DNA of 64,000 bases, from the NCBI GenBank assembly GCA_045634325.1, contig JAZRAA010000040.1, positions 33,002 to 97,001 of the forward strand, given 5' to 3'. The DNA comes from Acutalibacteraceae bacterium. Its GTDB lineage: Bacteria > Bacillota > Clostridia > Oscillospirales > Acutalibacteraceae. The notes under the pieces were generated by a model that was not told the DNA's origin, searched no databases, and was given only the letters and a program-made list of their open reading frames with translations. Both the position numbers and the translations under genes were made by a program. Below, in pieces: positions 46,731 to 63,551 of this stretch; the first letter of the stretch is position 1; each line of letters opens with the position of its first letter.

Positions 46731-46736
46731 GAACGG

Positions 46737-47339: not shown

Positions 47340-47370
47340 GAGAAAATCCTCCCGAGAGTCTTTTACTCTC

Positions 47371-48120: not shown

Positions 48121-48137
48121 ATCCATTTCCTCCTATC

Positions 48138-49310: not shown

Positions 49311-50061
49311 GTGGGACTGTCACCTCCTCATAAAACACTTTTTCGAGTCGCAACCCTTTTGCGGGGGCAGTGGTGCCTGCCATTTCACGCTTACCGGTAT
49401 GTAACGCTGTTTCAATGGCATCGGGCGACAGTCTTCCCGCCGCCATATCAAGCAAGGTGCCCACCATAATGCGCACCATATTATACAAAAATCCGTTTGC
49501 TTCCACCGTAAAAGTGACCATATCACCCTGACGCTCCACAGAAAATGCGGTCACGGTACGCACTGCATCCGACGTATCTGCACCCGCAGCGCAAAACGCC
49601 GAAAAATCGTGGGTGCCGACATACGCCTGTGCGAAACGGTGCAACCGTTCCGCATCCAACGGATACGGATGCTTGGTCACAAATTTATCGGTGAATGGGT
49701 TGCGGCAGTGAGAATTCCAGACACGGTAACAATACCGCTTGCCGCGCGCGGCATACCGTGGATGAAAATCGGCAGGCACTTCTTTACAATCGTACACCGC
49801 GACATCCTCCGGCAGATGCATATTGAGCGCTAACGGCATTTTATAGGCGGAAATATCACTATCCGTGTCAAAGGTACAGCAAAACATTTCGGCGTGCACA
49901 CCGGTATCGGTGCGACTGCAACCAATCACGCCTGCACGGGTGCCCGTCAACGCCTCGATGGCATCCTGTAAGGTTTCTTGCACCGATACGGCATTAGGTT
50001 GCACCTGCCATCCATGATAGGCGGTTCCGTCATACCGCAATGTCAGCAACAACCTTCTCAC
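49291..50061 (-). CDS. truA: tRNA pseudouridine(38-40) synthase TruA
   Basis: YDGTAYHGWQ and the catalytic RTDTGVHA motif. GTG start with an AAGGAGA SD. 20-nt overlap with the downstream gene. Confidence 0.93.
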   Translation of the reverse strand: MRRLLLTLRYDGTAYHGWQVQPNAVSVQETLQDAIEALTGTRAGVIGCSRTDTGVHAEMFCCTFDTDSDISAYKMPLALNMHLPEDVAVYDCKEVPADFHPRYAARGKRYCYRVWNSHCRNPFTDKFVTKHPYPLDAERLHRFAQAYVGTHDFSAFCAAGADTSDAVRTVTAFSVERQGDMVTFTVEANGFLYNMVRIMVGTLLDMAAGRLSPDAIETALHTGKREMAGTTAPAKGLRLEKVFYEEVTVPHGSEKA

Positions 50062-50074
50062 TTTCGCATCTCCT

Positions 50075-50890
50075 TTACAAAACCGGTTTCACAATCACGT
50101 TCAAAAGAATAAAACCCACAAGCACAACCGTGCATACGGTGAACGCAATATAATCTCTCGCCGCCAAATGCAAGATTTTCATACGTGTTCTGCCGTCGCC
50201 GCCCTGATAACAGCGACATTCCATCGCAGTCGCCAGTTCATACGCACGACGGAAAGAGGAAGCGAGCAACGGAATCAGAATGGGTATCATCGCCCGCACA
50301 CGTTGTAACAGTTTTCCGCTTTCCAAATCCGCACCACGCGCTTTTTGGGCAGACATGATTTTGTCCGTTTCTTCAATCAGCGTCGGGATAAAACGCAACG
50401 CAATGGTCATCATCATCGCAAGGTCATGCACCGGCACACGCAACACTTTGAGCGGTTTTAACAGCCGTTCCAGTGCATCGGTCAATGCCGTTGGCGGCGT
50501 GGTGTAAGTCAGCAATGAACTACCTGCAATCAAACACAAAATACGCACTACAATAAACGCGGCGGTGACAAAACCACCGGTATGGATTTCAAAAATCCAC
50601 CACCGTGCCAACAAAGCACCTTGTTTGACATAGAAAATATTGATTGCGGAAGTAAACAAAATAATGGGCACGATGGGTCGTATGCTTTTGAGTACCAAAC
50701 GTGTCGGCAAACCCGAGAGGGAGATGCTCAAAAACAAAAACGCCACTGCACCGCCGAGTCCATACCAGTTTTTGGGTATAAACACCATGCAAATCCACAA
50801 AATCGTTAAAACGAGTTTCATGCGTGGGTCTAACCGATGCAAAAGCGACTTGGCGGGGAAATATTGCCCCATAGTAATATCTTTCAGCAT
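50075..50890 (-). CDS. ecfT: ECF transporter transmembrane component EcfT
   Basis: 271 aa starting MLKDITMGQYFPAKSLLHRLDPRMKL, with the coupling-helix region ARGA. Confidence 0.9.
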   Translation of the reverse strand: MLKDITMGQYFPAKSLLHRLDPRMKLVLTILWICMVFIPKNWYGLGGAVAFLFLSISLSGLPTRLVLKSIRPIVPIILFTSAINIFYVKQGALLARWWIFEIHTGGFVTAAFIVVRILCLIAGSSLLTYTTPPTALTDALERLLKPLKVLRVPVHDLAMMMTIALRFIPTLIEETDKIMSAQKARGADLESGKLLQRVRAMIPILIPLLASSFRRAYELATAMECRCYQGGDGRTRMKILHLAARDYIAFTVCTVVLVGFILLNVIVKPVL

Positions 50891-51738
50891 GTGCCCACCC
50901 CCTTTTCACGGAGATAGGCTGTCAGCTTTTCTGTCGCGGCCTCCACCGTAAAAGCATCGGCATCCAGCCCCAACATATTCAATATACGCGCAACCGAGGG
51001 TACCGATAACCCCATTTGTTGCAGTTGGTCGGCATGTGAAAACACCGCTTGCACGGTATCATACATCTGCACCCGACTGTGTTGCATGACCAACACTTTA
51101 TCCGCCATGCGCGCGACGTCTTCCATGCTATGCGACACCATCAACACAGTGGCGTTGTGCGTTTTACGATAATCGTCAATACGCTCTAACAAAACGTCCC
51201 TTCCATGCGGGTCGAGTCCTGCTGTGGGTTCATCGAGCACCAACACCTCGGGTTGCATGGCAAGCACACCCGCAATTGCCGCACGTCGTTTTTCACCGCC
51301 GGACAAATCAAAAGGAGATTTTTCCAACAGGTCACGTGACAATCCGATTGTGTCAGCCGCTTCCAACACACGCTCGTCTATCTCGCATTTGGAGAGTCCC
51401 ATATTAGCGGGGCCAAAAGCTATATCTTTATACACCGTTTCTGCAAACAGCTGATGCTCGGGGTATTGAAACACCATACCCACTTTAAAACGGACATCCC
51501 GTATCTTTTTAGGGTCTGCCCAAATATCTTTTCCGTGCAACAACACCTGACCGGAAACCGGTTTGAGCAAACCGTTTAAATGTTGTACCAACGTGGATTT
51601 GCCACTGCCGGTATGGCCGATAATGGCGGTTAGCTCGCCGCTTTCAAATGCCACTGACACGTCTTTGAGTGCCGCATGCGCAAACGGCATGCCGTCCGCA
51701 TAGGTATAACACACATTTTTCATTTCAAGAACGCTCAT
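50884..51738 (-). CDS. ecfA2: ECF transporter ATPase EcfA2
   Basis: Walker A GHTGSGKST, signature LSGGEKRR and Walker B LVLDEPT. Confidence 0.92.
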   Translation of the reverse strand: MSVLEMKNVCYTYADGMPFAHAALKDVSVAFESGELTAIIGHTGSGKSTLVQHLNGLLKPVSGQVLLHGKDIWADPKKIRDVRFKVGMVFQYPEHQLFAETVYKDIAFGPANMGLSKCEIDERVLEAADTIGLSRDLLEKSPFDLSGGEKRRAAIAGVLAMQPEVLVLDEPTAGLDPHGRDVLLERIDDYRKTHNATVLMVSHSMEDVARMADKVLVMQHSRVQMYDTVQAVFSHADQLQQMGLSVPSVARILNMLGLDADAFTVEAATEKLTAYLREKGVGTC

Positions 51739-52592
51739 TCGCCGTCACCTGCCTTTCGGACAAGTGCCGCAATTGCGGCGGCGCACTCTTCCTCGGTGAG
51801 CACCGCTTGCGGTAAATCAAATCCGGCTTTTCGTAAGCGATAAGCAAGTTCAGTGGGTTGCGGCACATCCAAACGCAATGCACGCAAAGTATCTACCTGC
51901 GCAAAAATTTCACGTGGTGTACCATCCAGACGGATAATGCCGTTATCCAACACAACCACGCGGTCTGCCGCCGCCGCTTCCGCCATGTAGTGCGTGATGA
52001 GCACCACCGTCATCCCATGTTCGCGGTTAAGCATATGCACGGTATCCAACACCTCTTTGCGCCCTTGCGGGTCCAGCATAGCGGTGGGCTCGTCCAACAC
52101 TAACACCTTTGGTTGCATGGCGAGCACACCCGCAATAGCAATACGCTGTTTTTGACCGCCCGACAGTTTGTGTGGCGCACTTTCTCGATGTTCGTACATA
52201 CCCACGGCACGCAAAGCATCATCCACACGTTTGCGGATTTCCTCCGACGGCACACCGATGTTTTCGGGGCCAAACGCCACGTCTTCTTCCACGATGGACG
52301 AAACCAGTTGGTTGTCGGGGTTTTGCAGTACCATGCCTACCGTGCGACGAATTTCATACAACAACGCCTCATCCGCGGTGTCCATTCCCTGCACCCACAC
52401 TTTGCCGCCACTGGGTAATAAAATGGCGTTAAAGTGTTTGGCGAGTGTAGATTTACCGCTACCATTAGAACCAAGCAACGCAACAAAGCTCCCCTGCTCA
52501 ACGGTAAGGTCTACGCCCCGTAATACCGTTTGAGGAGCTTCATTTGCATACGCATATTTAAATTCCACATGTTGCGTGCTGATAATCTCCAT
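51735..52592 (-). CDS. ecfA1: ECF transporter ATPase EcfA1
   Basis: Walker A GSNGSGKST, signature LSGGQKQR and Walker B LVLDEPT. Start trimmed to ATG 52590-52592 with a GGAGGA SD. Confidence 0.92.
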   Translation of the reverse strand: MEIISTQHVEFKYAYANEAPQTVLRGVDLTVEQGSFVALLGSNGSGKSTLAKHFNAILLPSGGKVWVQGMDTADEALLYEIRRTVGMVLQNPDNQLVSSIVEEDVAFGPENIGVPSEEIRKRVDDALRAVGMYEHRESAPHKLSGGQKQRIAIAGVLAMQPKVLVLDEPTAMLDPQGRKEVLDTVHMLNREHGMTVVLITHYMAEAAAADRVVVLDNGIIRLDGTPREIFAQVDTLRALRLDVPQPTELAYRLRKAGFDLPQAVLTEEECAAAIAALVRKAGDGE

Positions 52593-52608
52593 GGTTCCTC
52601 CGAGAAAA

Positions 52609-53478
52609 CTACTTGGTTTCATGCCACATGGCAGTGGCGCCGCAAGGCAGTACCAAACCGCTTGCGCTGACCGGCAAACCAATTTCGTCCGCCGAAAATG
52701 CACCGCCATATTTTTTATCCATCAGCGAAGCCAATATGTACTGCATCACCGACGGGGATAATCCTGTTGTATACGAGTTAATCAGGAAAAACAGCGGTGT
52801 GTCAGACAACAGTTTAACACATTCCGACACCAGCCCGTAAATCTGTTCTTCCAGTTTCCACACCTCGCCACCGGGACCTCTGCCGTAAGACGGCGGGTCC
52901 ATCAAAATGGCATCGTAGGTATTACCACGGCGCAGTTCACGTTGCACAAACTTACCGCAATCGTCCACCAACCATCGCATCGGACGGTCGGCAAGGCCCG
53001 AATCTACTGCATTTTCACGTCCCCAAGAAACCATGCCTTTAGAGGCATCTACGTGGGTAACGTGCGCACCCGCCGCTATGCAAGCGAGGGTGGCGCCACC
53101 GGTATACCCAAACAGGTTTAACACCCGAATGGGTCTACCGGCATTTTTAATAAATTCTGTCATTTTATCCCAATTCACAGCTTGTTCAGGGAATAAACCG
53201 GTGTGCTTAAAACCCATCGGTTTCAAATTAAAGCGCAGGTCACCGTAACCGATTTGCCAACTCGCCGCTACCGAGCGAAACGTTTCCCAGTGTCCACCGC
53301 CCGTACCCGAACGCACGTACCGTGCGTGTGCCGTTTTCCAACGGGGGTCACGGCGCTCACTGCTCCATATAATCTGCGGATCGGGGCGAATCAAAATCAC
53401 GTCGCCCCACCGCTCCAATCGCTCGCCGTCACCGGCATCCAGCAATTCATAATCTTTCCAGTTATCTGCTACTCTCAT
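52609..53478 (-). CDS. class I SAM-dependent (RlmI/COG1092-like) methyltransferase
   Basis: LNLFGYTGGATLA (motif I) and ILMDPPSYG (motif IV). The start is ambiguous between ATG 53478 and TTG 53490. Confidence 0.75.
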   Translation of the reverse strand: MRVADNWKDYELLDAGDGERLERWGDVILIRPDPQIIWSSERRDPRWKTAHARYVRSGTGGGHWETFRSVAASWQIGYGDLRFNLKPMGFKHTGLFPEQAVNWDKMTEFIKNAGRPIRVLNLFGYTGGATLACIAAGAHVTHVDASKGMVSWGRENAVDSGLADRPMRWLVDDCGKFVQRELRRGNTYDAILMDPPSYGRGPGGEVWKLEEQIYGLVSECVKLLSDTPLFFLINSYTTGLSPSVMQYILASLMDKKYGGAFSADEIGLPVSASGLVLPCGATAMWHETK

Positions 53479-53486
53479 GTTTTTTG

Positions 53487-54839
53487 TCAACCGCCAATCA
53501 AATTCTTAATCGCATTGCAAATGGTTTCTGCCGCTTCATTGATAACAGCAAAATCTTTACCTTCCACCATCACACGAATAACCGGTTCGGTGCCGGAAGG
53601 ACGCACCAATACTCTGCCGTCTCTGCCCAAAGATGCATCAACGTCCGCAATCAATTTTGCAACCGTTTCATCAGCCGCATACTTCGCTTTTGCGGCCGCA
53701 TCTGCACGCACGCTGGAAAGCACCTGCGGGTAACGCGGCATCAAAGCGCCCACTGCGGAGAATTTCCAACCATGACGTTTCACAGCGGACAACAAATGCA
53801 ACGCGGACAACTGACCGTCACCGGTAGTGGCAAATTCACGCATGATGATATGACCCGACTGTTCACCGCCAATGACATAGCCCTTTTCTACCATTTCTTC
53901 CAACACATAACGGTCACCCACTTTAGTGGAAGCCACGTTGATACCCGCTTCTTCGCAATAACGGAAGAAACCGAGGTTGGACATCACGGTTACAACAGCG
54001 GTATTACCCGTTAACTCATTGATGCCTTTAAGGTCTGTAGCCAGTGCGGCAATCATCTGGTCACCATCTATCACTTCGCCGTTTTCATCCACCGCTAAGC
54101 AACGGTCGGCATCGCCGTCAAATGCAACGCCGCCATCCAGTTTATGCGCTTTGACATATTCTGCAAGCGGTTCCAAATAGGTAGAGCCGCAACCCGCATT
54201 GATGTTCACGCCATCGGGATCTAAGGACATAAAGTCACACTGGACGCCCAATTTGTCGAACAATTTTTTGGCAGTCACACTGGCAGAACCATTGGCACAA
54301 TCCACCGCAATATGCAAACCTTTCAAATCAACCGAAACGGTGGACACCAGATGCTCGATATAGTCTTCCACTGCGTTTTCACAACGGTACACGCGACCCA
54401 CGTCACCACCGGTCGGGCAGGGGATCTCTTTTGCATTATCCAGCACAATAGCTTCAATTTCTTCTTCCAAGCTGTCGGACAGTTTAAAGCCTTCGCCGTT
54501 AAAAATCTTAATGCCATTATATTCACAAGGATTATGCGAAGCGGAAATCATCACTGCGGCATCCGCGTTATATGCTTTTGCCAAAAACGCAACAGCGGGG
54601 GTGGGCACTACTCCCAGCAAATGTACGTCTGCACCCACAGAACACAGACCCGCGCACAATGCGGTTTCCAGCATATCACCGGAGATACGGGTATCTTTAC
54701 CAATCAACACCTTGGGACGTTTTTTTTCAGCAGAGGTCAGCACCATTGCCGCCGCTCTGCCGATGCCGATAGCCAACTCACAAGTCAACTCCGTATTTGC
54801 AACGCCACGCGCGCCGTCCGTACCAAATAATCTTCCCAT
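53487..54839 (-). CDS. glmM: phosphoglucosamine mutase
   Basis: 450 aa starting MGRLFGTDGARG, with the phosphoserine loop SASHNPCEYNGIK. Confidence 0.96.
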   Translation of the reverse strand: MGRLFGTDGARGVANTELTCELAIGIGRAAAMVLTSAEKKRPKVLIGKDTRISGDMLETALCAGLCSVGADVHLLGVVPTPAVAFLAKAYNADAAVMISASHNPCEYNGIKIFNGEGFKLSDSLEEEIEAIVLDNAKEIPCPTGGDVGRVYRCENAVEDYIEHLVSTVSVDLKGLHIAVDCANGSASVTAKKLFDKLGVQCDFMSLDPDGVNINAGCGSTYLEPLAEYVKAHKLDGGVAFDGDADRCLAVDENGEVIDGDQMIAALATDLKGINELTGNTAVVTVMSNLGFFRYCEEAGINVASTKVGDRYVLEEMVEKGYVIGGEQSGHIIMREFATTGDGQLSALHLLSAVKRHGWKFSAVGALMPRYPQVLSSVRADAAAKAKYAADETVAKLIADVDASLGRDGRVLVRPSGTEPVIRVMVEGKDFAVINEAAETICNAIKNLIGG

Positions 54840-54872: not shown

Positions 54873-55922
54873 TTACAATATCGTTATCTGCTCCGGCACA
54901 TTTTCAGTTGTACCGGGAGCAGGTAAACCCAAATGTTTGTAGGCGGCGGGTAAAACCACCCGACCGCGCGGGGTGCGGCTCAAAAAGCCGATTTGCATCA
55001 GATACGGTTCGTACACATCTTCAATAGTCACCGATTCTTCTCCGATAACCGCTGCCACCGTGTCCAAGCCAACCGGACCACCGCCGTAATGGCGAATCAT
55101 CGCTTCCAGCATATTTCTGTCCACACGATCCAACCCCAGAGCATCCACTTCCAAACGGTCCAGCGCCTGTGCAGCAGTATCCGCATCAATCACGCCGTCG
55201 TTCATTACCTGCGCAAAATCGCGCACACGCTTTAACATACGGTTAGCAATACGCGGTGTCCCGCGACTGCGGGAAGCAATTTCCAAAGCACCGCGTTCAT
55301 CACACGGCGTATGCAAAATCTGTGCACTGCGTCGGACAATTTCCGCTAAATGTGCGGGGGTGTACAACTCCAACCGCAAAATCACGCCAAAACGATCACG
55401 CAACGGTGCAGAAAGTTGTCCGGCGCGGGTGGTCGCGCCAATCAGCGTAAATTTCTGTAACGGCAGATGAATGGAAGAAGCGCCTTGTCCTTTGCCGTTG
55501 ATAATATCAATGGAGAAATCCTCCATCGCCGGATACAAAATTTCTTCCACCGTGCGGGGCAAACGATGAATTTCGTCGATGAACAGTACGTCGCCTTCCT
55601 CCATGTTGGTGAGCATTGCCGCCAAATCGCCGGGGCGTTCGAGTGCAGGACCCGAAGTAACACGGAAATTCACGCCCAGTTCATTGGCGATAATTGCCGC
55701 TAATGTAGTTTTGCCCAAACCGGGCGGTCCGTATAATAATACGTGGTCAAGAGGTTCATGCCGCAATTTCGCGGCATCGATGAACACCGACAGGTTTTCT
55801 TTCACCTTGTCTTGACCGATATACTCAGAAAGGGTGCGCGGGCGCAATGGGTTATCCCCGTCATCCTCCGGCAGATATTCCGCCGCTACCATTCGATTTT
55901 CATAATCGGTTTCAAACTCCAT
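54873..55922 (-). CDS. ruvB: Holliday junction branch migration helicase RuvB
   Basis: Walker [10 protein letters not shown], Walker B FIDEIHR and a RuvB C-terminal winged helix. Start trimmed to ATG 55920-55922. Confidence 0.96.
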
Positions 55923-55936
55923 CAAACACCCTCCCC

Positions 55937-56536
55937 TCATTTATTCGCAAGCAGTTTCAATGCACTGCGCACCAACGCCTCCACCGGCAAGTTGCTGTCC
56001 AGTTTGCCAACTGCCGCCGCCGCTTCTCCGGAAGAGAAGCCCAGCACCGTCAAAGCACTGACCGCCTGCGCAGCATTTCCCGCCGCCGAAATCGGTCCCG
56101 CTTCGGGCAAAGATACACCGTCTCCTGCCGTAGGCAATGCGCATTTATCTTTCAGTTCCAAAGCGATTCGCTGTGCGAGCTTCGGACCGACACCCGCCGC
56201 TTTGGTGAGCGCCTTGTAATCACCTGACGCCACGGCCAATGCCACTTGTTCAGGCGTGAGTTCGGATAAAATCGCAATGCCGACTTTCGGACCGACACCC
56301 GACACAGTGGTGAGCATCTTGAAAGATGCCAATTCATTTTTATCTGCAAAGCCGAATAATTCCATCGCATCCTCACGGACGTTGAGTGTGGTATACAACA
56401 TCACTTCATTGCCGACAGCGGGCAGTTGTCTTGCCGTGTTAAAGGTGATTTGGCAAGCCATGCCCACGCCGCCGCATTCCACCACCGCCAATTTGGGTTC
56501 CGCATGGGTCAGTTTGCCGCGCACACTATATATCAT
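55937..56536 (-). CDS. ruvA: Holliday junction DNA-binding protein RuvA
   Basis: MIYSVRGKL..., with HhH motifs ([24 protein letters not shown]). ATGA overlap with the ruvC stop. Confidence 0.94.
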
Positions 56537-57048
56537 ATCCTCTTCCCTCGCATTTCCAGCAACGAATTTTTCACCGCCGAGCCACCGTATTGCGCGTGGC
56601 AAATTGCCATAGCGAGCGCATCGGCAGTATCGTCGGGTTTTGGCACCGCTTTCAGCCGTAACAAACGGCGGGTCATTTCCATCACCTGCGGCTTTTGCGC
56701 TTGTCCGTAACCGGTAACGGCACTTTTCACCTGCAACGGTGTGTATTCATAAAACGGCACATCGCCTTGCTGCAACGCCAACAAAATCACACCACGCGCC
56801 TGCGCCACCTCAATCGCAGTTTTCTGGTTGTTTTGAAAGTATAATTTCTCCACAGATGCGACATCGGGATGATATCGCTCAATAACCGCCGCAAGATCGC
56901 TGTGGATTTTTTCCAGACGCGCCGAAAACGGCGTTCCCGCCTTGGTAATAACGGCACCAAAATCTATCGGTGAAAACCTGCCTCTCTCGTATTGAATCAC
57001 GCCCCAACCGACAATCGCATAACCGGGGTCAATGCCGAGAATAACCAT
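56533..57048 (-). CDS. ruvC: crossover junction endodeoxyribonuclease RuvC
   Basis: MVILGIDPGYAIVGWG... with a RuvC fold. Start trimmed to ATG 57046-57048 with a GGGAGGTG SD. Confidence 0.93.
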   Translation of the reverse strand: MVILGIDPGYAIVGWGVIQYERGRFSPIDFGAVITKAGTPFSARLEKIHSDLAAVIERYHPDVASVEKLYFQNNQKTAIEVAQARGVILLALQQGDVPFYEYTPLQVKSAVTGYGQAQKPQVMEMTRRLLRLKAVPKPDDTADALAMAICHAQYGGSAVKNSLLEMRGKRI

Positions 57049-57089
57049 GTTTTCACCTCCCAACACTTTCTCATGGTATTATCTATAAC

Positions 57090-57163: not shown

Positions 57164-57192
57164 TTGCCATATGTGCCATTTTCGTGTATACT
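57164..57192 (+). promoter_or_regulatory. sigma-A promoter for the cysteine desulfurase-thiI operon (TTGCCA-N17-TATACT)
   Basis: TTGCCA at 57164-57169, a 17-nt spacer and TATACT at 57187-57192. Confidence 0.5.
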
Positions 57193-57223
57193 ATAACCAA
57201 CTATAAATTATGGAGTTGTGCGC

Positions 57224-58381
57224 TTGAAAATTATCTATTTAGACAACAGTGCTACCACCGCCGTGTGCCCGCAATCGGCACAAAAAGCGGTACATATCAT
57301 GCAAGAATGTTATGGCAACCCCTCTTCTTTGCACCGTTTAGGATTCGAAGCGGAAAAAGAAATCAACGCCGCCAAAGAAGTCGTTGCCGACATGATGGGC
57401 GTGCCCGCTCGTGATGTATATTTCACCTCCGGCGGCACCGAGGCAAACAACACCGCCGTTTTGGGTGCCGCACGCGCACTTGCGCGACGCGGCAAACACA
57501 TCGTCACCACCGCTGTGGAACATTCTTCGGTTGCGGCAGCGTGCGATTTGCTGGAAAAAGAAGGATTTGTCGTCACACGTCTCACCCCTGACGAAAACGG
57601 CTGTATTACACCCGGAGCAATCGCTGCCGCCTGCCGTGAAGACACCGTTGTGGTATCCATTATGTTGGTCAACAACGAAACCGGTGCGCGATTCCATCCC
57701 GAACTGGCGGTTCCGCTCATTCGCAAACGCGCTCCGCTCGCCTTCATCCACTGTGATGCAGTGCAAGCCGCGGGTAAATTGCCGTTACACGGTGCAAAAT
57801 GGCAACTGGATGCCATGACCGTTTCCGCACACAAATTGCATGGTCCGAAAGGATGCGGCGCACTGTATCTGCGACGCGGTGCACGTATGAAACCGTTGCT
57901 ACTGGGCGGCAAACAACAAGAAAGTGTGCGTCCCGGTACCGAAGCGGTACCACTGATTGCCGCTTTCGGCGAAGCAGTAAAAGCTTTACCCTCCCTGTCA
58001 GCGCAAACGGAACATTTTAAAAACTTACGCGACCATCTGGTCGGACGTTTATCTACGCTTGAAGAAGTTGTGCTGCATCTGCCGCAAGACGGCGTGCCGT
58101 ATATCATACATCTGTCTGCAGTAGGCCTGCGCAGTGAAACCGTGTTGCATTTCTTATCCGAGCGGGGCATATTCGTATCCAGCGGTTCCGCTTGCTCCAA
58201 AGGTGCGAAAAGCCCCGTATTAACCGCTATGGGACTGCCCTCGGCGGAGATTGACAGTGCTATTCGTGTCAGCTTGTGTCATACCAATACCGCGCAAGAT
58301 ATAGACGCCTTTGCAGACGCCCTTTCACTTGCCATTCAAACCATTGCCAGAAAAAAAGGAGCTTCCAATCATGAATCGTGA
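57224..58381 (+). CDS. class V aminotransferase-fold cysteine desulfurase (NifS/NifZ-like, ThiI partner)
   Basis: IYLDNSATT, PLP lysine block SAHKLHGPKG and catalytic loop SSGSACS. The TTG at 57224 is preferred (GGAG 8 nt upstream); the GTG at 57218 is too close to the SD. Confidence 0.88.
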   Translation: MKIIYLDNSATTAVCPQSAQKAVHIMQECYGNPSSLHRLGFEAEKEINAAKEVVADMMGVPARDVYFTSGGTEANNTAVLGAARALARRGKHIVTTAVEHSSVAAACDLLEKEGFVVTRLTPDENGCITPGAIAAACREDTVVVSIMLVNNETGARFHPELAVPLIRKRAPLAFIHCDAVQAAGKLPLHGAKWQLDAMTVSAHKLHGPKGCGALYLRRGARMKPLLLGGKQQESVRPGTEAVPLIAAFGEAVKALPSLSAQTEHFKNLRDHLVGRLSTLEEVVLHLPQDGVPYIIHLSAVGLRSETVLHFLSERGIFVSSGSACSKGAKSPVLTAMGLPSAEIDSAIRVSLCHTNTAQDIDAFADALSLAIQTIARKKGASNHES

Positions 58382-59909
58382 TTTCAATGAAAAAGAATAC
58401 GCAGCGGTTGAGCAAGAGATATGGGATTTGCTGAAAAAAATGCAAGAAAAATCCTTGTCCACAAAGACCGAGCAAGAGAAGAAACCGACAAGCGAAAAAA
58501 TCCTGCCGGAATTGCCCGACACGCCCAACCCCGATTTTGTAGATGCACCGCTCATATTACCTCTTGCCAATGAGCAACTGCATCCTGCAAGTGCCACCGT
58601 CAACAACGCAACACAAACAGATAAAAACAAACCCGCAAACAAACGTAGCACGGGTCTGCGCAATATGTTCCCCTCCAAATCCGACTCCATCGGTGAAAAG
58701 ATGCGCAAATGCGTATTCTTGATTTGTCTGCTATTATGTATCGTCTCGTTATGCTTTTTAAGCTATTACATGGTCGTTGAACCCAAACAAGTGGAAACCA
58801 AAAACCAGCAGTACTTAGCACTATATACCGAGCAACCCGTCAACACGACCCCCAACACCAACACCTATCCCGATGGAATGCAATCCTCTTTCCGTGGGTT
58901 ATACGACGTCAATCCCGACATCGCAGGTTGGTTGAGTTTCGCTTCCAAAGGCACCGATGCATTTTTGCGTGTCAATCTGCCGGTGGTACATTGCGACAAT
59001 AACGACACCTATTTGTCCCGCTCGTTTGACGGTGAACAAAGCCGTTCAGGTACACTGTTTTTTGATGCAAGTAACAGCATTGCCAAAGATACCGATAACA
59101 AAGTCAGCATCATCTACGGGCACAACATGGCAAGCGGTGCTATGTTTGCAGGACTAAACAAACTGGTAGATAACGTCTACCGCGCACGTGCTGCTACCAC
59201 TATTTCACTCAACACGTTGTATGACACGCAACAGTATCAAGTGTTTGCAGTGTTGGTGTGTGATGAAGATGCAACCGGCGATGCCTATTTCCCGTATCTG
59301 CGCACCTCATTTGACACAGAAGCCGAGTTCCTCGAATATGTGTCCAATTTGCGTGCACGTTCTATGTACAATTACCCCATCACCGTCAGCGGTGATGACC
59401 AGTTGTTGATTCTGTCCACCTGCACCAACAAAAGTCAGGTCAAAATCAGTAACGGCAGATTGGTGGTAGTAGCGCGCCGTGTGAAAAAAGGCGAAAACGC
59501 GCAAATGAATACCAATCTCATCACACAAAACGAAGATGCGATTATGCCGTATGCCTGGTATACCGCACAACAGTTGTCCCCCCACGCATTTTACACCGAA
59601 AAGAACTATACGGTACAAAACGAAGGTAACGTTGTAACGGCAACTACCACTCCCCCTACGACCACTACCGACGTTGCAACCACTACTACCAATACCACAA
59701 CTACGAGAAAAAAAGTCGTGGCAAAAAACAACAAAACGACTAAAACGAAAGCTACCACAACAACGGTAAAAACTACCACTACTGTAGCGACCACAACCAC
59801 AACTACGACTGCAACTACGACTGCAACTACGACTGCAACGACTACAGCGAACACAACTACTGCTGCTACCGGCAGTCAAACCACCCAAACGGAAGGAACA
59901 ACCACATGA
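58371..59909 (+). CDS. class B sortase-family transpeptidase with long cytoplasmic N-terminus, one TM and a Thr-rich C-terminal tail
   Basis: Catalytic His (IIYGHNM), Cys (LILSTCT) and Arg (VVVARR) lie in SrtB-like order. TM is CVFLICLLLCIVSLCFLSYYMVV. ATG 58371 has an AAGGAG SD, overlaps the desulfurase end by 11 nt, and its stop overlaps the thiI ATG (ATGA). Confidence 0.8.
   Translation: MNRDFNEKEYAAVEQEIWDLLKKMQEKSLSTKTEQEKKPTSEKILPELPDTPNPDFVDAPLILPLANEQLHPASATVNNATQTDKNKPANKRSTGLRNMFPSKSDSIGEKMRKCVFLICLLLCIVSLCFLSYYMVVEPKQVETKNQQYLALYTEQPVNTTPNTNTYPDGMQSSFRGLYDVNPDIAGWLSFASKGTDAFLRVNLPVVHCDNNDTYLSRSFDGEQSRSGTLFFDASNSIAKDTDNKVSIIYGHNMASGAMFAGLNKLVDNVYRARAATTISLNTLYDTQQYQVFAVLVCDEDATGDAYFPYLRTSFDTEAEFLEYVSNLRARSMYNYPITVSGDDQLLILSTCTNKSQVKISNGRLVVVARRVKKGENAQMNTNLITQNEDAIMPYAWYTAQQLSPHAFYTEKNYTVQNEGNVVTATTTPPTTTTDVATTTTNTTTTRKKVVAKNNKTTKTKATTTTVKTTTTVATTTTTTTATTTATTTATTTANTTTAATGSQTTQTEGTTT
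59637..59906 (+). repeat. Thr-rich low-complexity tail coding region, including a perfect 3 x 12-nt tandem repeat (59801-59836)
   Basis: Codes TATTTPPTTTTDVATTTTNTTTT...TTTTTTATTTATTTATTTANTTTAATGSQTTQTEGTTT. The unit aactacgactgc repeats three times. Confidence 0.85.
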
Positions 59910-61087
59910 ATGATACTGTATTAAAAGAAATTCTACTGATAAAAAACGGCGAACTGGCACTCAAAGGTTTGAACCGCGGCACGTTTGAAGCGGTGCTGGT
60001 GAAAAACCTACGATACCGCCTTCGTAAACTGGGACAGTTTACCATTCGTAAGGCCCAATCCACCATTTATATTGAACCCTCCAGCCCCGATGCCGATTTG
60101 GATGCGGCAGTGGATGCGATATCCCGCGTGTTCGGTATTGCCGGATTCTCCCGCGCTTGCGTCACCGAAAAAGACATCGATGCCATCGGCAAAGCGGCTA
60201 TTCAGTATTTGGAAAACGAGTTATGCGCCGCCTCCAGCTTTAAAGTGGAGTCCAAGCGAGCCGACAAGTCATTCACCTTTACATCTCCTGAAATCAGCCG
60301 AGAAATCGGTGGCAGAATTTTAGAGCATTATTCGCATCTGCGGGTAGACGTGCACGCCCCTGATATCACGGTGTATGTAGAGATTCGAGATTTCGGTGCT
60401 TATATACATGCGCCACAGTTGCCTGGTGCCGGTGGTATGCCGGTAGGTACCGGCGGCAAATGCGGTATCCTCATTTCCGGCGGCATCGACTCTCCCGTTG
60501 CAGCTTATATGATGGCAAAACGCGGTATTGAACTGACCGGTATTCATTTTGCCTCTCCCCCGTATACCAGTGAACGCGCCGAGCAAAAGGTTATCGACCT
60601 TTTGAAACAGGTTTCCACTTATGCAGGGCGCATTCCGTTGCATATCGTACCGTTCACGCATATTCAAGAAGAAATTCAGCGCAACTGCCCCGAAGAATAT
60701 TTCACACTGATTATGCGACGGTTTATGATGCGGCTCGCCTGTCGTATCGCCAAAGCACAAGGATGCGGCGCACTTATCACAGGCGAAAGTGTCGGACAGG
60801 TAGCCAGTCAAACAATCCCCGCACTCGCTTGCACCGATGCCGTGACCGACCTGCCGATGTTCCGTCCAGTCATTGGCATGGATAAAGAGGAAATCGTGCG
60901 TATTTCCCGTAAAATCGGTACATTTGATATTTCCATTCAACCGTTTGAGGATTGTTGTACCGTGTTTACACCCCGCCATCCCTGCACCCGCCCCAAAGTA
61001 GAGGCGGTTGCCAAAGCCGAAAGTGTTTTAGACATTGACGGGTTGGTAGAAGAAGCATTAGCGGGCGTGCGCATCATAAAAATTTGA
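59906..61087 (+). CDS. thiI: tRNA 4-thiouridine(8) synthase ThiI (no rhodanese domain)
   Basis: 393 aa with a THUMP region and the PP-loop SGGIDSPVAAY. Confidence 0.94.
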   Translation: MNDTVLKEILLIKNGELALKGLNRGTFEAVLVKNLRYRLRKLGQFTIRKAQSTIYIEPSSPDADLDAAVDAISRVFGIAGFSRACVTEKDIDAIGKAAIQYLENELCAASSFKVESKRADKSFTFTSPEISREIGGRILEHYSHLRVDVHAPDITVYVEIRDFGAYIHAPQLPGAGGMPVGTGGKCGILISGGIDSPVAAYMMAKRGIELTGIHFASPPYTSERAEQKVIDLLKQVSTYAGRIPLHIVPFTHIQEEIQRNCPEEYFTLIMRRFMMRLACRIAKAQGCGALITGESVGQVASQTIPALACTDAVTDLPMFRPVIGMDKEEIVRISRKIGTFDISIQPFEDCCTVFTPRHPCTRPKVEAVAKAESVLDIDGLVEEALAGVRIIKI

Positions 61088-61114
61088 CCGATTTGAGATG
61101 AAAGGAGGGACAGC

Positions 61115-62848
61115 ATGGCACAAACGATATCCACTGCCATTCATGAAACGGCACAAAAAGCGGTAGATGTTTTGTGTGCGAAAGCACTCACCGTTTCCAC
61201 CGCGGAATCCTGTACTGCCGGACTGCTGTCCGCCGCCATCACCGAAATAGCCGGTGCGTCCGCTGTTTTTGGTTGCGGGATTGCGGCATATTCTCCTGCT
61301 ATCAAACAACAGCTTTTAGAAGTGCCCGCCGCTATATTGGAAGCGCACGGCACTGTTAGTAGTGAAACCGCCACCGCCATGGCAGACGGTGTGCGCCGCA
61401 AAAGCGGCGCAGATATAGGTGTTGCCATTACCGGTGTCGCAGGACCTGCACAAAGCGAGGGAAAACCCGTGGGTACAGTGCACATCGCACTCTCCGACAA
61501 AAACCGTGTGTGGCTGACACAATTACCCACGCAAGATGGTCCGCAAACCCGTGAGAATATTCGCAATGCGGCTGTATTGACCGCACTTTCCCTCATACTG
61601 CAATATGCAGAAAATTTCCCACTGATGATGGCGGGCAGCATACCGATTGTGCAAGCCGAAAAAACACAGGTGGTCATCCCCGAACAACCTACCACCCATC
61701 AGCACAAGCCCTTTTTGGCCACTATTTTTCCGTGGCAAGGCGATTCCATTAAAGAAAAATTATACAAAGCGGGCGGAGCTTTTGCCGCACTGTGTGTTTT
61801 AGTGGGAATTGTTTCAAGTGGGTATCAGCTGTTTTCAGAAAGCGGTAATCGCTCGCTGTACAGCGACTTGCAAGATATGTATACCACCGAACAATCCCAA
61901 GCATCAACGCCTTCCGACCCTAAAAATATTCTTCCGCGTTTTTCCTCGCTGAGACTGCAAAATGCGGATATCGGCGGTTGGATACGCATTGCCGACACCG
62001 GCATCAACTATCCCGTGATGAAAAATGCGGGCAGTAATTTTTACGCAGACCACAATTTCCGCCAACAAGCATCTGCTTATGGCGTGCCTTTTCTGGATAA
62101 AGATAACCACTTGGCATCAGCAGAGAGCCAAGACAAAGTATTGGTCGTCTACGGCAACAACACAGAAGACGGACAGATGTTTTCGGATTTGCTGTCCTAC
62201 CGTGACCCGAACTTTTTCAAAAACCACGCCGTAGTAGAAATGAGCACCTTATATGCGGCTGAACAATGGGAATTGTTTGCCGTGATGGTCATTGACCCAC
62301 AAGAAGTCAACGCATTTGCATTTAATCAAACAACATTTGAAGACCATCAGGCTTTCACCGACCATATCGTAGGGATACGCAAGCGCTCCTTGCTCAACAC
62401 CAACGTCACCGTAAACCCCGACGACCGTCTGTTAGTACTGGTAACGCAAGCAGAAAAGACATATGGATTTGACGGGGCAACTTTTGTGGTGGTAGGCAAA
62501 CGGCTGACCCAATCGAATACGGCAAGCAAGAAAGAACCTTTGACCGTCAAAAAGAACCAGACGGTTATTATGCCGCGTGCATGGGTGCGTAACCAACAGA
62601 ACACCGTCACCAAGCACACTACCGCTTCCAAGACGCAAAATACAACCACGACCACCTCGGCAGAAACTACCACGAATGCCACATCGACAACCACCCATAC
62701 GCAACCGACGACCACCGATGTGACCATTTCTACTACCGATACAACCTCCTCTACACAAGGCACCACTACCGCAGACACGGCGGCTACCCAATCACAAACC
62801 ACTATAACGACGACAACAACCGAGTCTGCTCTATCCGAAAATACTTAA
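61115..62848 (+). CDS. fusion protein: CinA C-terminal/PncC-type nicotinamide-nucleotide amidohydrolase domain + TM + catalytically degenerate sortase-B-like domain + Thr-rich tail
   Basis: Residues 1 to about 165 are TAESCTAGLLSAAIT...GVAITGVAGP (CinA/PncC). TM is GGAFAALCVLVGIVSSGYQLF. The ectodomain is paralogous to the upstream sortase, but the His block reads VVYGNNT and the Cys block reads LVLVTQA. AAAGGAGGG SD. Confidence 0.75.
   Translation: MAQTISTAIHETAQKAVDVLCAKALTVSTAESCTAGLLSAAITEIAGASAVFGCGIAAYSPAIKQQLLEVPAAILEAHGTVSSETATAMADGVRRKSGADIGVAITGVAGPAQSEGKPVGTVHIALSDKNRVWLTQLPTQDGPQTRENIRNAAVLTALSLILQYAENFPLMMAGSIPIVQAEKTQVVIPEQPTTHQHKPFLATIFPWQGDSIKEKLYKAGGAFAALCVLVGIVSSGYQLFSESGNRSLYSDLQDMYTTEQSQASTPSDPKNILPRFSSLRLQNADIGGWIRIADTGINYPVMKNAGSNFYADHNFRQQASAYGVPFLDKDNHLASAESQDKVLVVYGNNTEDGQMFSDLLSYRDPNFFKNHAVVEMSTLYAAEQWELFAVMVIDPQEVNAFAFNQTTFEDHQAFTDHIVGIRKRSLLNTNVTVNPDDRLLVLVTQAEKTYGFDGATFVVVGKRLTQSNTASKKEPLTVKKNQTVIMPRAWVRNQQNTVTKHTTASKTQNTTTTTSAETTTNATSTTTHTQPTTTDVTISTTDTTSSTQGTTTADTAATQSQTTITTTTTESALSENT
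62618..62825 (+). repeat. Thr-rich low-complexity tail coding region
   Basis: Codes TTASKTQNTTTTTSAETTTNATSTTTHTQPTTTDVTISTTDTTSSTQGTTTADTAATQSQTTITTTTTE. Confidence 0.8.
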
Positions 62849-62890
62849 AAAAAGCGGTTTCACCGTCCAAGACGGTGAAACCGCTTTTTA
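62847..62890. terminator. bidirectional rho-independent terminator
   Basis: Perfect 15-bp stem AGCGGTTTCACCGTC/GACGGTGAAACCGCT (62853-62885), flanked by AAAAAA and TTTT. Confidence 0.88.
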
Positions 62891-62891
62891 C

Positions 62892-63518
62892 TTATTCTTC
62901 TTTTTGTTTTTCCCAAGGAATGATGCACAGCGCTTCCGCAACCGGCTCTCGCATCCACAAAGAAGGCGTGATACGCAATGTAAAACCATTACCCGCATTT
63001 GCCACACAATCTCCCATGGACAACTTGGGCAACGCATAGGTCATCATCAACATCATAATCACACCGCCGTGGGTGCAAATGACCGCCTCGGTATCTCCGC
63101 TACGCATCAGTTCTTCTACCACCGCCTCAAAAGCCGCCGTCACACGTGCACAAAACGTCTCGGTAGACTCACCGCCCGGAATCACTTGGGACGTGCCCTC
63201 CATCCATTCCAGAAAATCAGCACTGTTTTTGAGTTGCGCAATACTTTTGCCTTCCCACGCCCCGAAATCACATTCGGTCAATCCTTCTACCACTTCCAAT
63301 TTTGCTTGCGGATACAACACCTTCATCGTCTGTTTGCAACGATTGAGCGGTGCAGTAAAAAAGCGTGCGGCACCGGGATATTCCATCTGTTCTTTTAAAG
63401 TCAGAAGTTCTTTTAACCCCTCCGGTGATAACGGTAAATCGGTTCTGCCAATATACAATCCTTCCGTATTCGCGGCGGTTTGCCCGTGGCGAATGAGATG
63501 AATTTTGTAAGTTTTCAT
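62892..63518 (-). CDS. histidine phosphatase (phosphoglycerate mutase-like) family protein
   Basis: RHG motif (IHLIRHGQT) and a second catalytic His region (ICTHGGV). ATG 63516-63518 with GGAGGA 7 nt upstream. Confidence 0.8.
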   Translation of the reverse strand: MKTYKIHLIRHGQTAANTEGLYIGRTDLPLSPEGLKELLTLKEQMEYPGAARFFTAPLNRCKQTMKVLYPQAKLEVVEGLTECDFGAWEGKSIAQLKNSADFLEWMEGTSQVIPGGESTETFCARVTAAFEAVVEELMRSGDTEAVICTHGGVIMMLMMTYALPKLSMGDCVANAGNGFTLRITPSLWMREPVAEALCIIPWEKQKEE

Positions 63519-63551
63519 CAAAATTTCCTCCTAATTGTTGCAATTTGACGA

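What the first reader, a model, noticed from the sequence alone, without database searches (positions are those of the whole stretch)
57224..62848. tRNA 4-thiouridine operon (cysteine desulfurase-thiI) interleaved with two paralogous membrane sortase-fold proteins
What the sequence shows:
- A NifS/NifZ-type desulfurase and ThiI, a functional pair for s4U8 synthesis in Firmicutes, are separated by a class B sortase gene.
- That sortase gene's start overlaps the desulfurase end by 11 nt, and its stop overlaps the thiI ATG (ATGA).
- thiI is followed 27 nt later by a second gene whose ectodomain is a paralogue of that sortase.
- One promoter (57164-57192) and one terminator (62847-62890) bracket all four genes.

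Inference: translational coupling of a cell-surface transpeptidase to cytoplasmic tRNA-thiolation enzymes is not an arrangement I recognise. It implies co-regulation or a functional link. Both sortase-fold proteins also have sizeable cytoplasmic N-terminal domains. No LPXTG/NPQTN-type substrate gene is present in the window.
Basis: partly seen in the sequence, partly recalled or inferred. Interest (0 to 1): 0.65.

Follow-up and report, generated by a model that had tools for sequence, protein, structure and literature searches.

The report
Sortase pair inside tRNA-thiolation operon
A gut Clostridia bacterium keeps four tightly packed genes together (two enzymes that put sulfur on tRNA, one membrane sortase, and an inactive sortase copy fused to the cytoplasmic enzyme CinA), the same unit is found in several hundred related species, and nobody has described it.

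Summary
On the + strand lie a NifS/IscS-type cysteine desulfurase (57218-58381), a bitopic class-B-type sortase "SRT1" (58371-59909), a ThiI without a rhodanese domain (59906-61087) and a CinA/PncC-TM-sortase-fold fusion "SRT2" (61115-62848). The junctions are -11, -4 and +27 nt. A -30.9 kcal/mol terminator closes the unit.

The order is not strain-specific. It holds in all 71 related loci with enough sequence, out of 310 relatives in Acutalibacteraceae, Oscillospiraceae and Ruminococcaceae. It was also recovered from searches started with SRT2. Flanking genes vary.

- SRT2 is a dead sortase (His→Asn, Cys→Gln, Arg→Thr). None of 55 orthologues keeps His or Cys, yet the fold is conserved and the CinA Ser/Lys dyad is intact.
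- SRT1 keeps His-Cys-Arg in 79 of 80 loci, but some lineages carry a dead SRT1 in the same slot.
- SRT1's cytoplasmic extension is unconserved, not a domain.
- In 31 loci the fusion also carries a SpoIID-like peptidoglycan-hydrolase domain.
- ruvC stays adjacent to the unit.

Most likely this is a co-expressed housekeeping operon that holds a cell-wall-directed enzyme/pseudoenzyme pair and tethers CinA to the membrane. A biochemical link to tRNA thiolation is unproven. No RNA data were available.

The parts
57164..57192 (+). Sigma-70-like promoter candidate (TTGCCA-17-TATACT) in the 151-nt AT-rich gap shared with divergent ruvC
   Evidence: 10/12 match; hits in the region are at chance frequency; sequence.
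57218..58381 (+). NifS/IscS-type (NifZ-like) PLP cysteine desulfurase. The start is GTG 57218 or TTG 57224.
   Evidence: PF00266 at 3e-72; TIGR03402 at 3e-101, below the equivalog cutoff.
58371..59909 (+). SRT1, a bitopic class-B-type sortase of 512 aa. It has an unconserved cytoplasmic extension, a juxtamembrane motif, a TM helix, a catalytic domain, a post-domain motif and a Thr-rich tail.
58668..58778 (+). SRT1 juxtamembrane motif FPSKSDSIGEKMRK (aa 100-113) and TM helix (aa 114-136). P101, D105 and K113 are conserved in both paralogues.
   Evidence: AF2 helix.
58863..59489 (+). SRT1 sortase-B catalytic domain (aa ~165-373) with His251 (YGHNM), Cys351 (LSTC) and Arg363 (NGRLVV)
   Evidence: The PDB alignment to B. 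anthracis SrtB aligns the YGH and LSTC motifs and the GRLVV Arg. AF2 pLDDT 90.8. Foldseek TM 0.85-0.87 to 1rz2/2oqw.
59529..59561 (+). Post-domain motif NEDAIMPYAWY (aa 387-397), conserved in both paralogues and in the wider clostridial family. Its role is unknown.
   Evidence: modelled with high confidence, packed on the domain.
59637..59906 (+). SRT1 Thr-rich low-complexity extracellular tail. Its last codons carry the thiI Shine-Dalgarno sequence.
59906..61087 (+). thiI, tRNA uracil-4 sulfurtransferase (ThiI_fer + THUMP + PP-loop, no rhodanese domain)
   Evidence: TIGR00342 at 369 bits, above the cutoff of 264.5.
61115..62848 (+). SRT2, a 577-aa fusion: CinA/PncC domain, TM helix, catalytically dead sortase-B fold, Thr-rich tail
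61145..61606 (+). CinA/PncC amidohydrolase domain (aa 11-164), cytoplasmic. Ser32/Lys64 dyad and Tyr59, Thr106, Arg146 are all invariant in the family alignment.
   Evidence: residue roles from PMC5384747.
61727..61831 (+). SRT2 juxtamembrane motif FPWQGDSIKEK (aa 205-215) and TM helix (aa ~219-239)
61922..62509 (+). Pseudo-sortase domain (aa ~270-465). The catalytic positions are Asn348, Gln445 and Thr456 in place of His, Cys and Arg.
   Evidence: Foldseek TM 0.92 to S. aureus SrtB 4lfd.
62555..62584 (+). SRT2 copy of the post-domain motif (NQTVIMPRAW, aa 481-490)
62603..62845 (+). SRT2 Thr-rich extracellular tail
62849..62889 (.). Strong intrinsic terminator, probably bidirectional (A-run / 19-bp stem / T-run)
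   Evidence: dG -30.9, z -9.8.
54873..57066 (-). ruvC-ruvA-ruvB, divergent from the cluster. This neighbour is conserved: ruvC directly follows cinA on the same strand in 20 related loci.

Best explanation
This is a conserved housekeeping operon of Acutalibacteraceae, Oscillospiraceae and Ruminococcaceae. It is read from one promoter region to one terminator, with translational coupling between genes.

It encodes two things:
1. The s4U8 tRNA-thiolation pair: a NifZ-like desulfurase that makes a persulfide, and a rhodanese-less ThiI that adenylates U8 and transfers the sulfur. This is the Bacillus subtilis arrangement.
2. An envelope module of two N-in/C-out bitopic proteins with sortase-B folds.

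SRT1 keeps the His-Cys-Arg triad and is probably an active transpeptidase. Its substrates are not encoded nearby.

SRT2 has lost the triad everywhere but is under strong purifying selection. Its most likely role is as a non-catalytic partner or ligand-binding ectodomain directed at peptidoglycan. That domain tethers an apparently active CinA/PncC amidohydrolase to the cytoplasmic face of the membrane.

The linkage to nifZ-thiI most likely reflects shared expression, held in place by overlapping coding and Shine-Dalgarno sequences. It does not indicate shared chemistry.

Shown: gene content, junctions, folds, the state of the catalytic residues, conservation of the order.
Inferred: co-transcription, topology, enzyme activity, the SRT1-SRT2 partnership, the peptidoglycan target.
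For: - Junctions of -11, -4 and +27 nt, each with a Shine-Dalgarno sequence, and a single strong terminator.
- The order is conserved in 71 of 71 informative loci, with median gaps of 16, 20 and 28 nt, while the flanks differ.
- The same four-gene unit was recovered from SRT2 homologues at 36-40% identity. It was also found in the locus of a protein identical to one from the cultured Anaeromassilibacillus sp. SJQ-5.
- SRT1 has a sortase-B fold and triad. The triad is His-Cys-Arg in 79 of 80 upstream copies and in 0 of 55 downstream copies.
- Upstream and downstream copies form separate clades in a neighbour-joining tree.
- SRT2 has many invariant ectodomain residues, and its CinA catalytic and binding residues are invariant.
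- Topology and peptidoglycan link: in relatives, CinA always sits N-terminal of the TM helix. SpoIID-like (31 of 80 loci), PASTA and Big domains sit C-terminal of the sortase fold.
- The window consists otherwise of core housekeeping genes.
Against: - No transcript data, so internal promoters cannot be excluded. Weak consensus hits lie at 60486 and 60701 inside thiI.
- No substrate with a sorting signal was found in the window or in about 1 Mb of related loci. SRT1's transpeptidase role therefore rests on residues and fold only.
- Both sortase-fold proteins fall below NCBIfam's SrtB cutoff.
- Dead SRT1 copies sit in the same slot in some lineages (L079, L083, L084). So catalysis is not what keeps the gene there in every lineage.
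- Unbroken linkage across an order-level clade is stronger than co-expression alone usually explains.
- An SRT1-SRT2 interaction was not tested.
Confidence: 0.55

Rival explanations
1. Functionally coupled machine. The two sortase-fold proteins form a transmembrane sensor or scaffold that reports cell-wall state to cytoplasmic enzymes. These would be CinA (fused), and ThiI and the desulfurase (recruited through the conserved juxtamembrane motif). tRNA thiolation or NAD recycling would then be tuned to envelope growth or damage.
For: - Unbroken linkage with translational coupling across hundreds of species despite changing flanks.
- A juxtamembrane cytoplasmic motif, P..GD...E..RK, is shared by both paralogues.
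- CinA is repeatedly fused to the sortase fold, in both active and dead forms.
- A dead SRT1 is retained in the slot, which suggests a non-catalytic role.
Against: - There is no evidence of any contact with ThiI or the desulfurase.
- SRT1's long cytoplasmic extension is unconserved and is absent in lineages with 333-343-aa SRT1, although the order is kept there.
- CinA is unfused in seven loci (L011, L021, L023, L031, L035, L044 and L084).
- Established precedent for tRNA-modification genes sharing operons with membrane proteins without a known functional link: E. coli queA-tgt-yajC-secDF (from established knowledge, not tested here).
Confidence: 0.15
2. Ordinary housekeeping sortase plus historical accident. 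SRT1 is simply the general protein-sorting sortase of these organisms, with substrates elsewhere, as for C. difficile SrtB. SRT2 is a membrane anchor for CinA with no ectodomain function of its own. Gene order persists only because overlapping genes are hard to separate.
For: - Triad and fold are intact.
- No linked substrate, as is typical for housekeeping sortases.
- Overlaps and embedded Shine-Dalgarno sequences constrain rearrangement.
Against: - The SRT2 ectodomain is strongly conserved: dozens of invariant residues in 40 sequences down to 34% identity. It forms one clade. That is not expected for a mere spacer.
- The recurrent SpoIID and PASTA fusions argue for a cell-wall role.
- Most loci have small positive gaps rather than overlaps, so physical constraint is weak.
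- Some lineages have a dead SRT1.
Confidence: 0.2
3. Strain-specific insertion, assembly chimera or frameshift artefact created the interleaving and the CinA fusion.
For: None found.
Against: - 310 relatives in species-representative genomes, with 71 of 71 informative loci sharing the order.
- 635 homologues of the fusion from independent assemblies.
- GC content is uniform with the surroundings.
Confidence: 0.01

Closest known systems
Bacillus subtilis nifZ-thiI s4U8 pair (rhodanese-less ThiI with a dedicated cysteine desulfurase)
   Same: A ThiI made of ferredoxin-like, THUMP and PP-loop domains without a rhodanese domain, encoded in one operon with a class-V aminotransferase-type desulfurase.
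   Different: Here a sortase gene is inserted between the two and translationally coupled to both. A CinA fusion follows. That the desulfurase serves ThiI is inferred from context only.
Class B sortases with solved structures (B. anthracis SrtB 1rz2/2oqw, S. aureus SrtB 4lfd, C. difficile SrtB 4ux7/5gyj)
   Same: Fold (TM 0.85-0.92), an N-terminal membrane anchor and, for SRT1, the His-Cys-Arg triad in YGH, LSTC and GR contexts, at 24-32% identity.
   Different: - Scores fall below the TIGR03064 cutoff.
- There is an extra cytoplasmic extension, a conserved post-domain N..IMP.AW motif and a Thr-rich tail.
- No linked substrate or isd-type locus is present.
- SRT2 lacks the whole triad.
CinA / PncC NMN deamidases (A. 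tumefaciens 2a9s, T. thermophilus 4ct8, S. mutans 6mr3)
   Same: Fold (TM ~0.88-0.93), about 40% identity, and a conserved Ser/Lys dyad plus phosphate-binding Tyr, Ser and Arg. Like cinA-recA in other Bacillota, the gene sits next to recombination genes, here ruvCAB.
   Different: Known CinA proteins are soluble. Here the domain is fused through a TM helix to an extracellular dead sortase fold. In relatives the fusion also includes the COG1058 and KH domains and a SpoIID-like domain.
Enzyme/pseudoenzyme pairs in cell-wall remodelling (e.g. degenerate LytM factors EnvC/NlpD that activate amidases)
   Same: A catalytically dead paralogue is retained under selection beside an active one in the envelope. 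This is an analogy from established knowledge.
   Different: No interaction or activation has been shown here, and the fold and chemistry are unrelated.
E. coli queA-tgt-yajC-secD-secF operon
   Same: tRNA-modification genes share an operon with membrane-protein genes without a demonstrated common pathway (established knowledge).
   Different: Different genes. It is cited only as a precedent that such linkage need not mean shared function.

Membership tests
Class B sortase (TIGR03064 / MEROPS C60B): SRT1 | Sortase beta-barrel fold with class-B-specific elements | tested here: met
   AF2 pLDDT 90.8. The top 19 Foldseek PDB hits are all class B sortases, TM 0.73-0.89 normalised to the target.
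Class B sortase: SRT1 | Catalytic His-Cys-Arg triad | tested here: met
   H251, C351 and R363 fall in the YGH, LSTC and GRLVV motifs shared with B. anthracis SrtB. The triad is His-Cys-Arg in 79 of 80 orthologous loci.
Class B sortase: SRT1 | Family HMM score at or above the curated cutoff | tested here: not met
   TIGR03064 scores 146.0 bits against a cutoff of 153.75. Pfam Sortase gives no hit with hmmscan.
Class B sortase: SRT1 | Cognate substrate with a C-terminal sorting signal, usually encoded nearby | tested here: not met
   None in the 64-kb window. There is one dubious candidate in 1.05 Mb of related loci. Whole genomes were not searchable.
Class B sortase: SRT1 | Transpeptidase activity | not testable with these tools
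   Needs an enzyme assay.
Class B sortase: SRT2 | Catalytic His-Cys-Arg triad | tested here: not met
   N348, Q445 and T456 in the window. None of 55 orthologues keeps His or Cys. The fold is retained, TM 0.92 to 4lfd.
CinA/PncC amidohydrolase (PF02464): N-terminal domain of SRT2 | HMM above the gathering score, and the fold | tested here: met
   162 bits against 23.5. TIGR00199 scores 130.7 against 68.9. Foldseek TM 0.88-0.93.
CinA/PncC amidohydrolase | Ser/Lys catalytic dyad and NMN-phosphate ligands (AtCinA S31, K63, Y58, S48, R145) | tested here: met
   S32, K64, Y59, S49 and R146 are invariant in 40 sequences. They align to 2a9s. Residue roles come from PMC5384747.
CinA/PncC amidohydrolase | NMN deamidase activity | not testable with these tools
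   Needs an assay. The physiological substrate of membrane-tethered forms is unknown.
NifZ-ThiI type s4U8 system | ThiI with THUMP and PP-loop domains, without a rhodanese domain | tested here: met
   Pfam finds ThiI_fer, THUMP and ThiI only, in 393 aa. TIGR00342 is above its cutoff.
NifZ-ThiI type s4U8 system | Dedicated cysteine desulfurase encoded in the same operon | tested here: met
   A PF00266 desulfurase lies two genes upstream in the same tight unit in 71 of 71 loci. Partner specificity was not tested.
SpoIID-type lytic transglycosylase fusion (form found in relatives) | C-terminal SpoIID domain after the pseudo-sortase | tested here: not met
   Absent from the window (tblastn). Present in 31 of 80 related loci.

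The most novel reading that the evidence does not exclude
The sortase-B fold has been recruited in Clostridia as the extracellular, peptidoglycan-facing part of a transmembrane device whose cytoplasmic effector is CinA. SRT1 (active) and SRT2 (dead, CinA-fused, often carrying SpoIID) would work as an enzyme/pseudoenzyme complex. That complex would couple cell-wall remodelling or damage to cytoplasmic NAD/nucleotide metabolism and, through the co-translated NifZ-ThiI pair and the adjacent RuvCAB, to tRNA thiolation and recombination repair. This would give the long-enigmatic 'competence/damage-inducible' CinA a defined membrane role and would be the first functional pseudo-sortase.
Probability: 0.12. 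Interest if true: 0.85.

Novelty: new variant of a known kind. Interest (0 to 1): 0.55.

Why it matters
Every component belongs to a known family, but three things appear to be undescribed. Six full-text literature searches found nothing on them.

1. A sortase gene is embedded in, and translationally coupled to, the nifZ-thiI pair across several hundred gut and rumen species.
2. A family of catalytically dead sortase-B domains is kept under purifying selection.
3. CinA occurs as a bitopic membrane protein whose ectodomain is a sortase fold, often extended by a SpoIID-like peptidoglycan hydrolase.

The third point offers a concrete handle on CinA, whose physiological role remains unclear. It also suggests sortase folds can have non-transpeptidase, cell-wall-directed roles. 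The carriers are abundant, poorly studied gut anaerobes, and at least one cultured isolate exists for experiments. If the linkage is only co-expression, the finding is still a useful annotation correction: 'class B sortase' is being applied to inactive proteins.

Tried and rejected
- RNA evidence. No RNA runs hold the window sequence; only gut and bovine metagenome DNA runs do. Operon transcription therefore remains inferred.
- Pfam hmmscan does not detect the Sortase domain in either window protein. NCBIfam, PDB sequence search and fold search were needed instead.
- A word-indexed homologue search with the SRT2 ectodomain alone returned only 12 hits and was uninformative. The exhaustive representative search replaced it.
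- A Pfam scan of 144 representatives exceeded the size limit. A 52-member subset was used.
- Sorting-signal scans of the window and of 1.05 Mb of related loci found no credible substrate.
- Rfam and tRNA scans of the window found nothing, so there is no leader or riboswitch upstream.
- A conserved 'QTEGT' near the SRT1 C-terminus was considered as a possible sorting motif. It was rejected because it is the thiI Shine-Dalgarno sequence (GGAAGGA) read in the SRT1 frame.
- A lineage-specific recent duplication giving SRT2 was considered. The neighbour-joining tree shows two old, separately monophyletic clades that are as distant from each other as from short canonical SrtB-like proteins.
- Adjacency to the dcw (cell division and wall) cluster, with mraZ downstream in L081 and ftsZ upstream in L084, looked suggestive. 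It occurs in only a few loci.


Full report
**1. What is there**

The + strand from about 57.2 to 62.9 kb carries four ORFs.

- The first (57218 or 57224 to 58381) is a class-V aminotransferase-type cysteine desulfurase. PF00266 scores 3e-72. The best NCBIfam matches are NifS, DndA and IscS, all below their equivalog cutoffs.
- The third (59906-61087) is ThiI, with ferredoxin-like, THUMP and PP-loop domains and no rhodanese domain. TIGR00342 scores 369 bits against a cutoff of 264.5.
- The second (SRT1, 58371-59909) matches NCBIfam's SrtB model at 146 bits, just under the 153.75 cutoff.
- The C-terminal half of the fourth (SRT2, 61115-62848) matches the same model at 133 bits. The first 164 residues of SRT2 are a CinA/PncC domain (PF02464, 1e-47). 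Pfam's Sortase model hits neither window protein.

**2. Junctions**

- The SRT1 ATG at 58371 lies 11 nt before the end of the desulfurase gene. AAAGGAG sits 7 nt upstream of it.
- The SRT1 stop and the thiI start share ATGA.
- 27 nt containing AAAGGAGGG separate thiI from SRT2.
- The thiI Shine-Dalgarno sequence (GGAAGGA) is encoded within the last SRT1 codons (T-E-G). This explains a conserved 'TEG' at the C-terminus of SRT1 homologues.
- Homologues start MNRDF/MNRNF, which supports 58371 as the start rather than the upstream TTG.
- The hairpin at 62849-62889 has a 19-bp stem, dG -30.9 kcal/mol and z = -9.8.
- The promoter candidate at 57164-57192 is a 10/12 match, but such matches occur at chance frequency in this region.
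- No Rfam family and no tRNA gene occur in the window.

**3. The two sortase-fold proteins**

AlphaFold2 models, built with family alignments, are confident.

- SRT1 residues 115-440: pLDDT 90.8.
- SRT2 residues 1-500: pLDDT 87.5.

Foldseek against the PDB puts class B sortases first for both. SRT1 reaches TM 0.85-0.87 to B. anthracis SrtB. SRT2 reaches TM 0.92 to S. aureus SrtB. The N-terminal domain of SRT2 matches CinA/PncC structures at TM about 0.88-0.93.

The sequence alignment to B. anthracis SrtB aligns the YGH, LSTC and GRLVV motifs with SRT1 His251 (YGHNM), Cys351 (LSTC) and Arg363 (NGRLVV). In SRT2 the same columns hold Asn348, Gln445 and Thr456. SRT2 is therefore a pseudo-sortase.

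The two proteins are paralogues, with 29% identity over 339 aa and E = 8e-36. The similarity starts at a cytoplasmic juxtamembrane motif (FP..GD...EK..K). It runs through the TM helix and the domain, and ends in a post-domain motif (N..IMP.AW) that canonical SrtB proteins do not have.

Both end in Thr-rich low-complexity tails.

The roughly 100 residues before SRT1's juxtamembrane motif are not conserved among 46 homologues. Some orthologues of only 333-343 aa lack both this extension and the tail. It is an extension, not a domain.

The CinA domain keeps the residues shown by mutagenesis of A. tumefaciens CinA to be catalytic (Ser31/Lys63) or substrate-binding (Tyr58, Ser48, Thr105, Arg145) (PMC5384747). 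They correspond to Ser32, Lys64, Tyr59, Ser49, Thr106 and Arg146 here. All are invariant in a 40-sequence family alignment.

**4. Conservation of the arrangement**

A scan of one genome per species found 310 relatives of SRT1. The best 80 loci come from assemblies labelled Acutalibacteraceae, Oscillospiraceae, Ruminococcaceae, Ruminococcus sp., Candidatus Avimonas, and unclassified Clostridia, Clostridiales or Eubacteriales.

tblastn with the window's proteins shows desulfurase-SRT1-thiI-cinA in every locus that extends far enough, down to about 40% SRT1 identity. In 71 loci the median gaps are:

| Junction | Median gap |
|---|---|
| desulfurase to SRT1 | 16 nt (22 overlaps) |
| SRT1 to thiI | 20 nt |
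| thiI to cinA | 28 nt |

.

Flanking genes are not conserved. The exception is ruvC. It follows cinA on the same strand in 20 loci. It lies about 160 nt upstream and divergent in the window and its six closest relatives, and about 2.7 kb upstream in L020.

The unit was also recovered from other starting points:

- From SRT2 homologues of 36-40% identity, with entirely different flanks.
- From a prevalent human-gut lineage, where it abuts mraZ and the cell-division/wall gene cluster.
- From the locus of a protein identical to WP_457790525.1 of the cultured Anaeromassilibacillus sp. SJQ-5.

**5. Division of labour, and exceptions**

Over the 80 loci, the copy between the desulfurase and thiI has His-Cys-Arg in 79. 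The copy after thiI never has His or Cys, in 0 of 55. Seven further loci agree. In a neighbour-joining tree the two sets are separately monophyletic. Each is as far from the other as from short canonical SrtB-like proteins.

There are exceptions. In a wider sample, 5 of 46 SRT1-family proteins lack both His and Cys. Two of them were traced. One sits in desulfurase-deadSRT1-thiI-CinA fusion-ruvC-ruvA (L083). The other sits in ftsZ-desulfurase-deadSRT1-thiI-unfused 166-aa CinA-ruvC-ruvA (L084). So in some lineages the slot is kept without catalysis.

**6. Forms of the fourth gene, and the wider family**

The gene after thiI occurs in three forms.

- An unfused CinA C-domain of 160-175 aa: six of the 80 loci, plus L084.
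- CinA C-domain (with or without the KH domain), TM helix, pseudo-sortase and Thr tail, 540-700 aa. This is the window's type.
- Full CinA (MoCF + KH + PncC), TM helix, pseudo-sortase, Thr linker and a roughly 350-aa C-terminal domain, about 1150-1200 aa in total.

That last C-terminal domain carries GHGVGMSQ and matches SpoIID structures (5i1t, 5txu, 4rwr; E about 3e-10). It is present in 31 of the 80 loci and absent from the window.

An exhaustive search of 1.84 billion cluster representatives with the SRT2 ectodomain gave 12,739 hits. Among the top 148, 91 keep His-Cys-Arg and the rest are dead. CinA motifs are fused to both active and dead sortase domains, and so are SpoIID motifs.

Pfam on 52 long representatives found:

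| Family | Members |
|---|---|
| Sortase | 39 |
| CinA | 24 |
| CinA_KH | 19 |
| MoCF | 17 |
| SpoIID | 9 |
| Big_2 | 4 |
| PASTA | 2 |

In these architectures the cytoplasmic enzyme always precedes the TM helix, and the wall-related domains follow the sortase fold. This fixes the N-in/C-out topology and points the ectodomain at peptidoglycan.

**7. Interpretation**

The best-supported reading is a co-expressed housekeeping operon that combines two things. One is the s4U8 thiolation pair. The other is an envelope module: an apparently active class-B-type sortase and a conserved dead paralogue that tethers an apparently active CinA to the membrane.

Nothing beyond linkage connects the sortases to tRNA thiolation. 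The unconserved SRT1 extension argues against a fixed cytoplasmic docking domain, and so do the lineages that lack it.

The linkage is nevertheless unusually stable, a juxtamembrane motif is shared, and dead SRT1 copies persist. A real functional coupling therefore stays open, at roughly 15%.

A purely accidental arrangement with a functionless SRT2 ectodomain is unlikely, given its conservation and its SpoIID and PASTA fusions. An artefact or recent insertion is excluded.

**8. Known or new**

Six full-text searches found no paper on a sortase within nifZ-thiI, on CinA-sortase or SpoIID-sortase fusions, or on pseudo-sortases. Public annotations call these proteins 'class B sortase' or 'nicotinamide-nucleotide amidohydrolase family protein'.

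I rate it a new variant of known kinds: real, widespread and undescribed, with the mechanism unresolved.

**9. Limits**

- No transcript data were available.
- No whole genome was available to search for sortase substrates.
- The tree is a quick neighbour-joining tree.
- The 80 loci were selected through SRT1 similarity. Six further loci chosen through SRT2 or other homologues agree.

Noticed in passing
L012:13253-14293, and 30 other related loci (L015, L020, L022, and others): The CinA-pseudo-sortase fusion of many relatives ends in a SpoIID-like domain (GHGVGMSQ motif; PDB SpoIID hits at E about 3e-10). The result is a 1150-1200-aa protein with a cytoplasmic NAD-recycling enzyme and an extracellular peptidoglycan hydrolase. 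The domain is absent from the window.
   Followed up: yes
L083:7001-8530; L084:7001-8602; L079 upstream copy: In some lineages the sortase between the desulfurase and thiI has itself lost His and Cys, yet it keeps its place in the operon. In L084 the CinA after thiI is unfused (166 aa), so the operon contains only a dead sortase.
   Followed up: partly
window 54873-57066 (- strand); L083, L084 and 20 of the 80 loci: ruvC-ruvA(-ruvB) is a persistent neighbour. It is divergent from the cluster in the window, and it directly follows and overlaps cinA on the same strand in many relatives. This recalls the cinA-recA linkage of other Bacillota.
   Followed up: partly
L081:11942-21707; L084:1-5360: In two lineages the four-gene unit abuts the cell-division/wall gene cluster. 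In one it sits just before mraZ-rsmH-ftsL-PBP-murE-mraY-ftsW-murG. In the other it sits just after ftsW-murG-murA-ftsQ-ftsZ. This is not general: 2-4 of 80 loci.
   Followed up: partly
window 59529-59561 and 62555-62584: A motif N..(V/A)IMP.AW(Y) follows the sortase fold in both paralogues and across the wider clostridial family. It is modelled with high confidence against the domain. Whether it acts like the lid of class C sortases could not be checked.
   Followed up: no
window 59890-59909: The conserved C-terminal 'TEG' of SRT1 homologues is the thiI ribosome-binding site (GGAAGGA) read in the SRT1 frame. This is a case of protein-level 'conservation' imposed by the next gene's translation signal.
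   Followed up: yes
window 59307-59960 and 62347-62802 (- strand): Long Val- or Gly-rich antisense ORFs lie opposite the Thr-rich tails. They are by-products of the ACC/ACA repeats and are not genes.
   Followed up: no
window 32508-34073 (+): A RibF (FAD synthetase + riboflavin kinase) is fused to a C-terminal HAD-family hydrolase domain. This is an unusual three-domain arrangement.
   Followed up: no
window 44445-54839 (- strand): The block upstream is a run of housekeeping genes: glmM, a SAM methyltransferase, ecfA1-ecfA2-ecfT, truA, DUF5711, cvpA, pgsA and a ClpC-type ATPase. pgsA is not followed by cinA here, unlike the pgsA-cinA-recA order of Bacillus (the latter from established knowledge).
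   Followed up: no
window 62849-62889: The terminator has an A-run on one side and a T-run on the other. It lies 3 nt from the stop of the convergent histidine-phosphatase gene (62892-63521), so it probably terminates both.
   Followed up: partly
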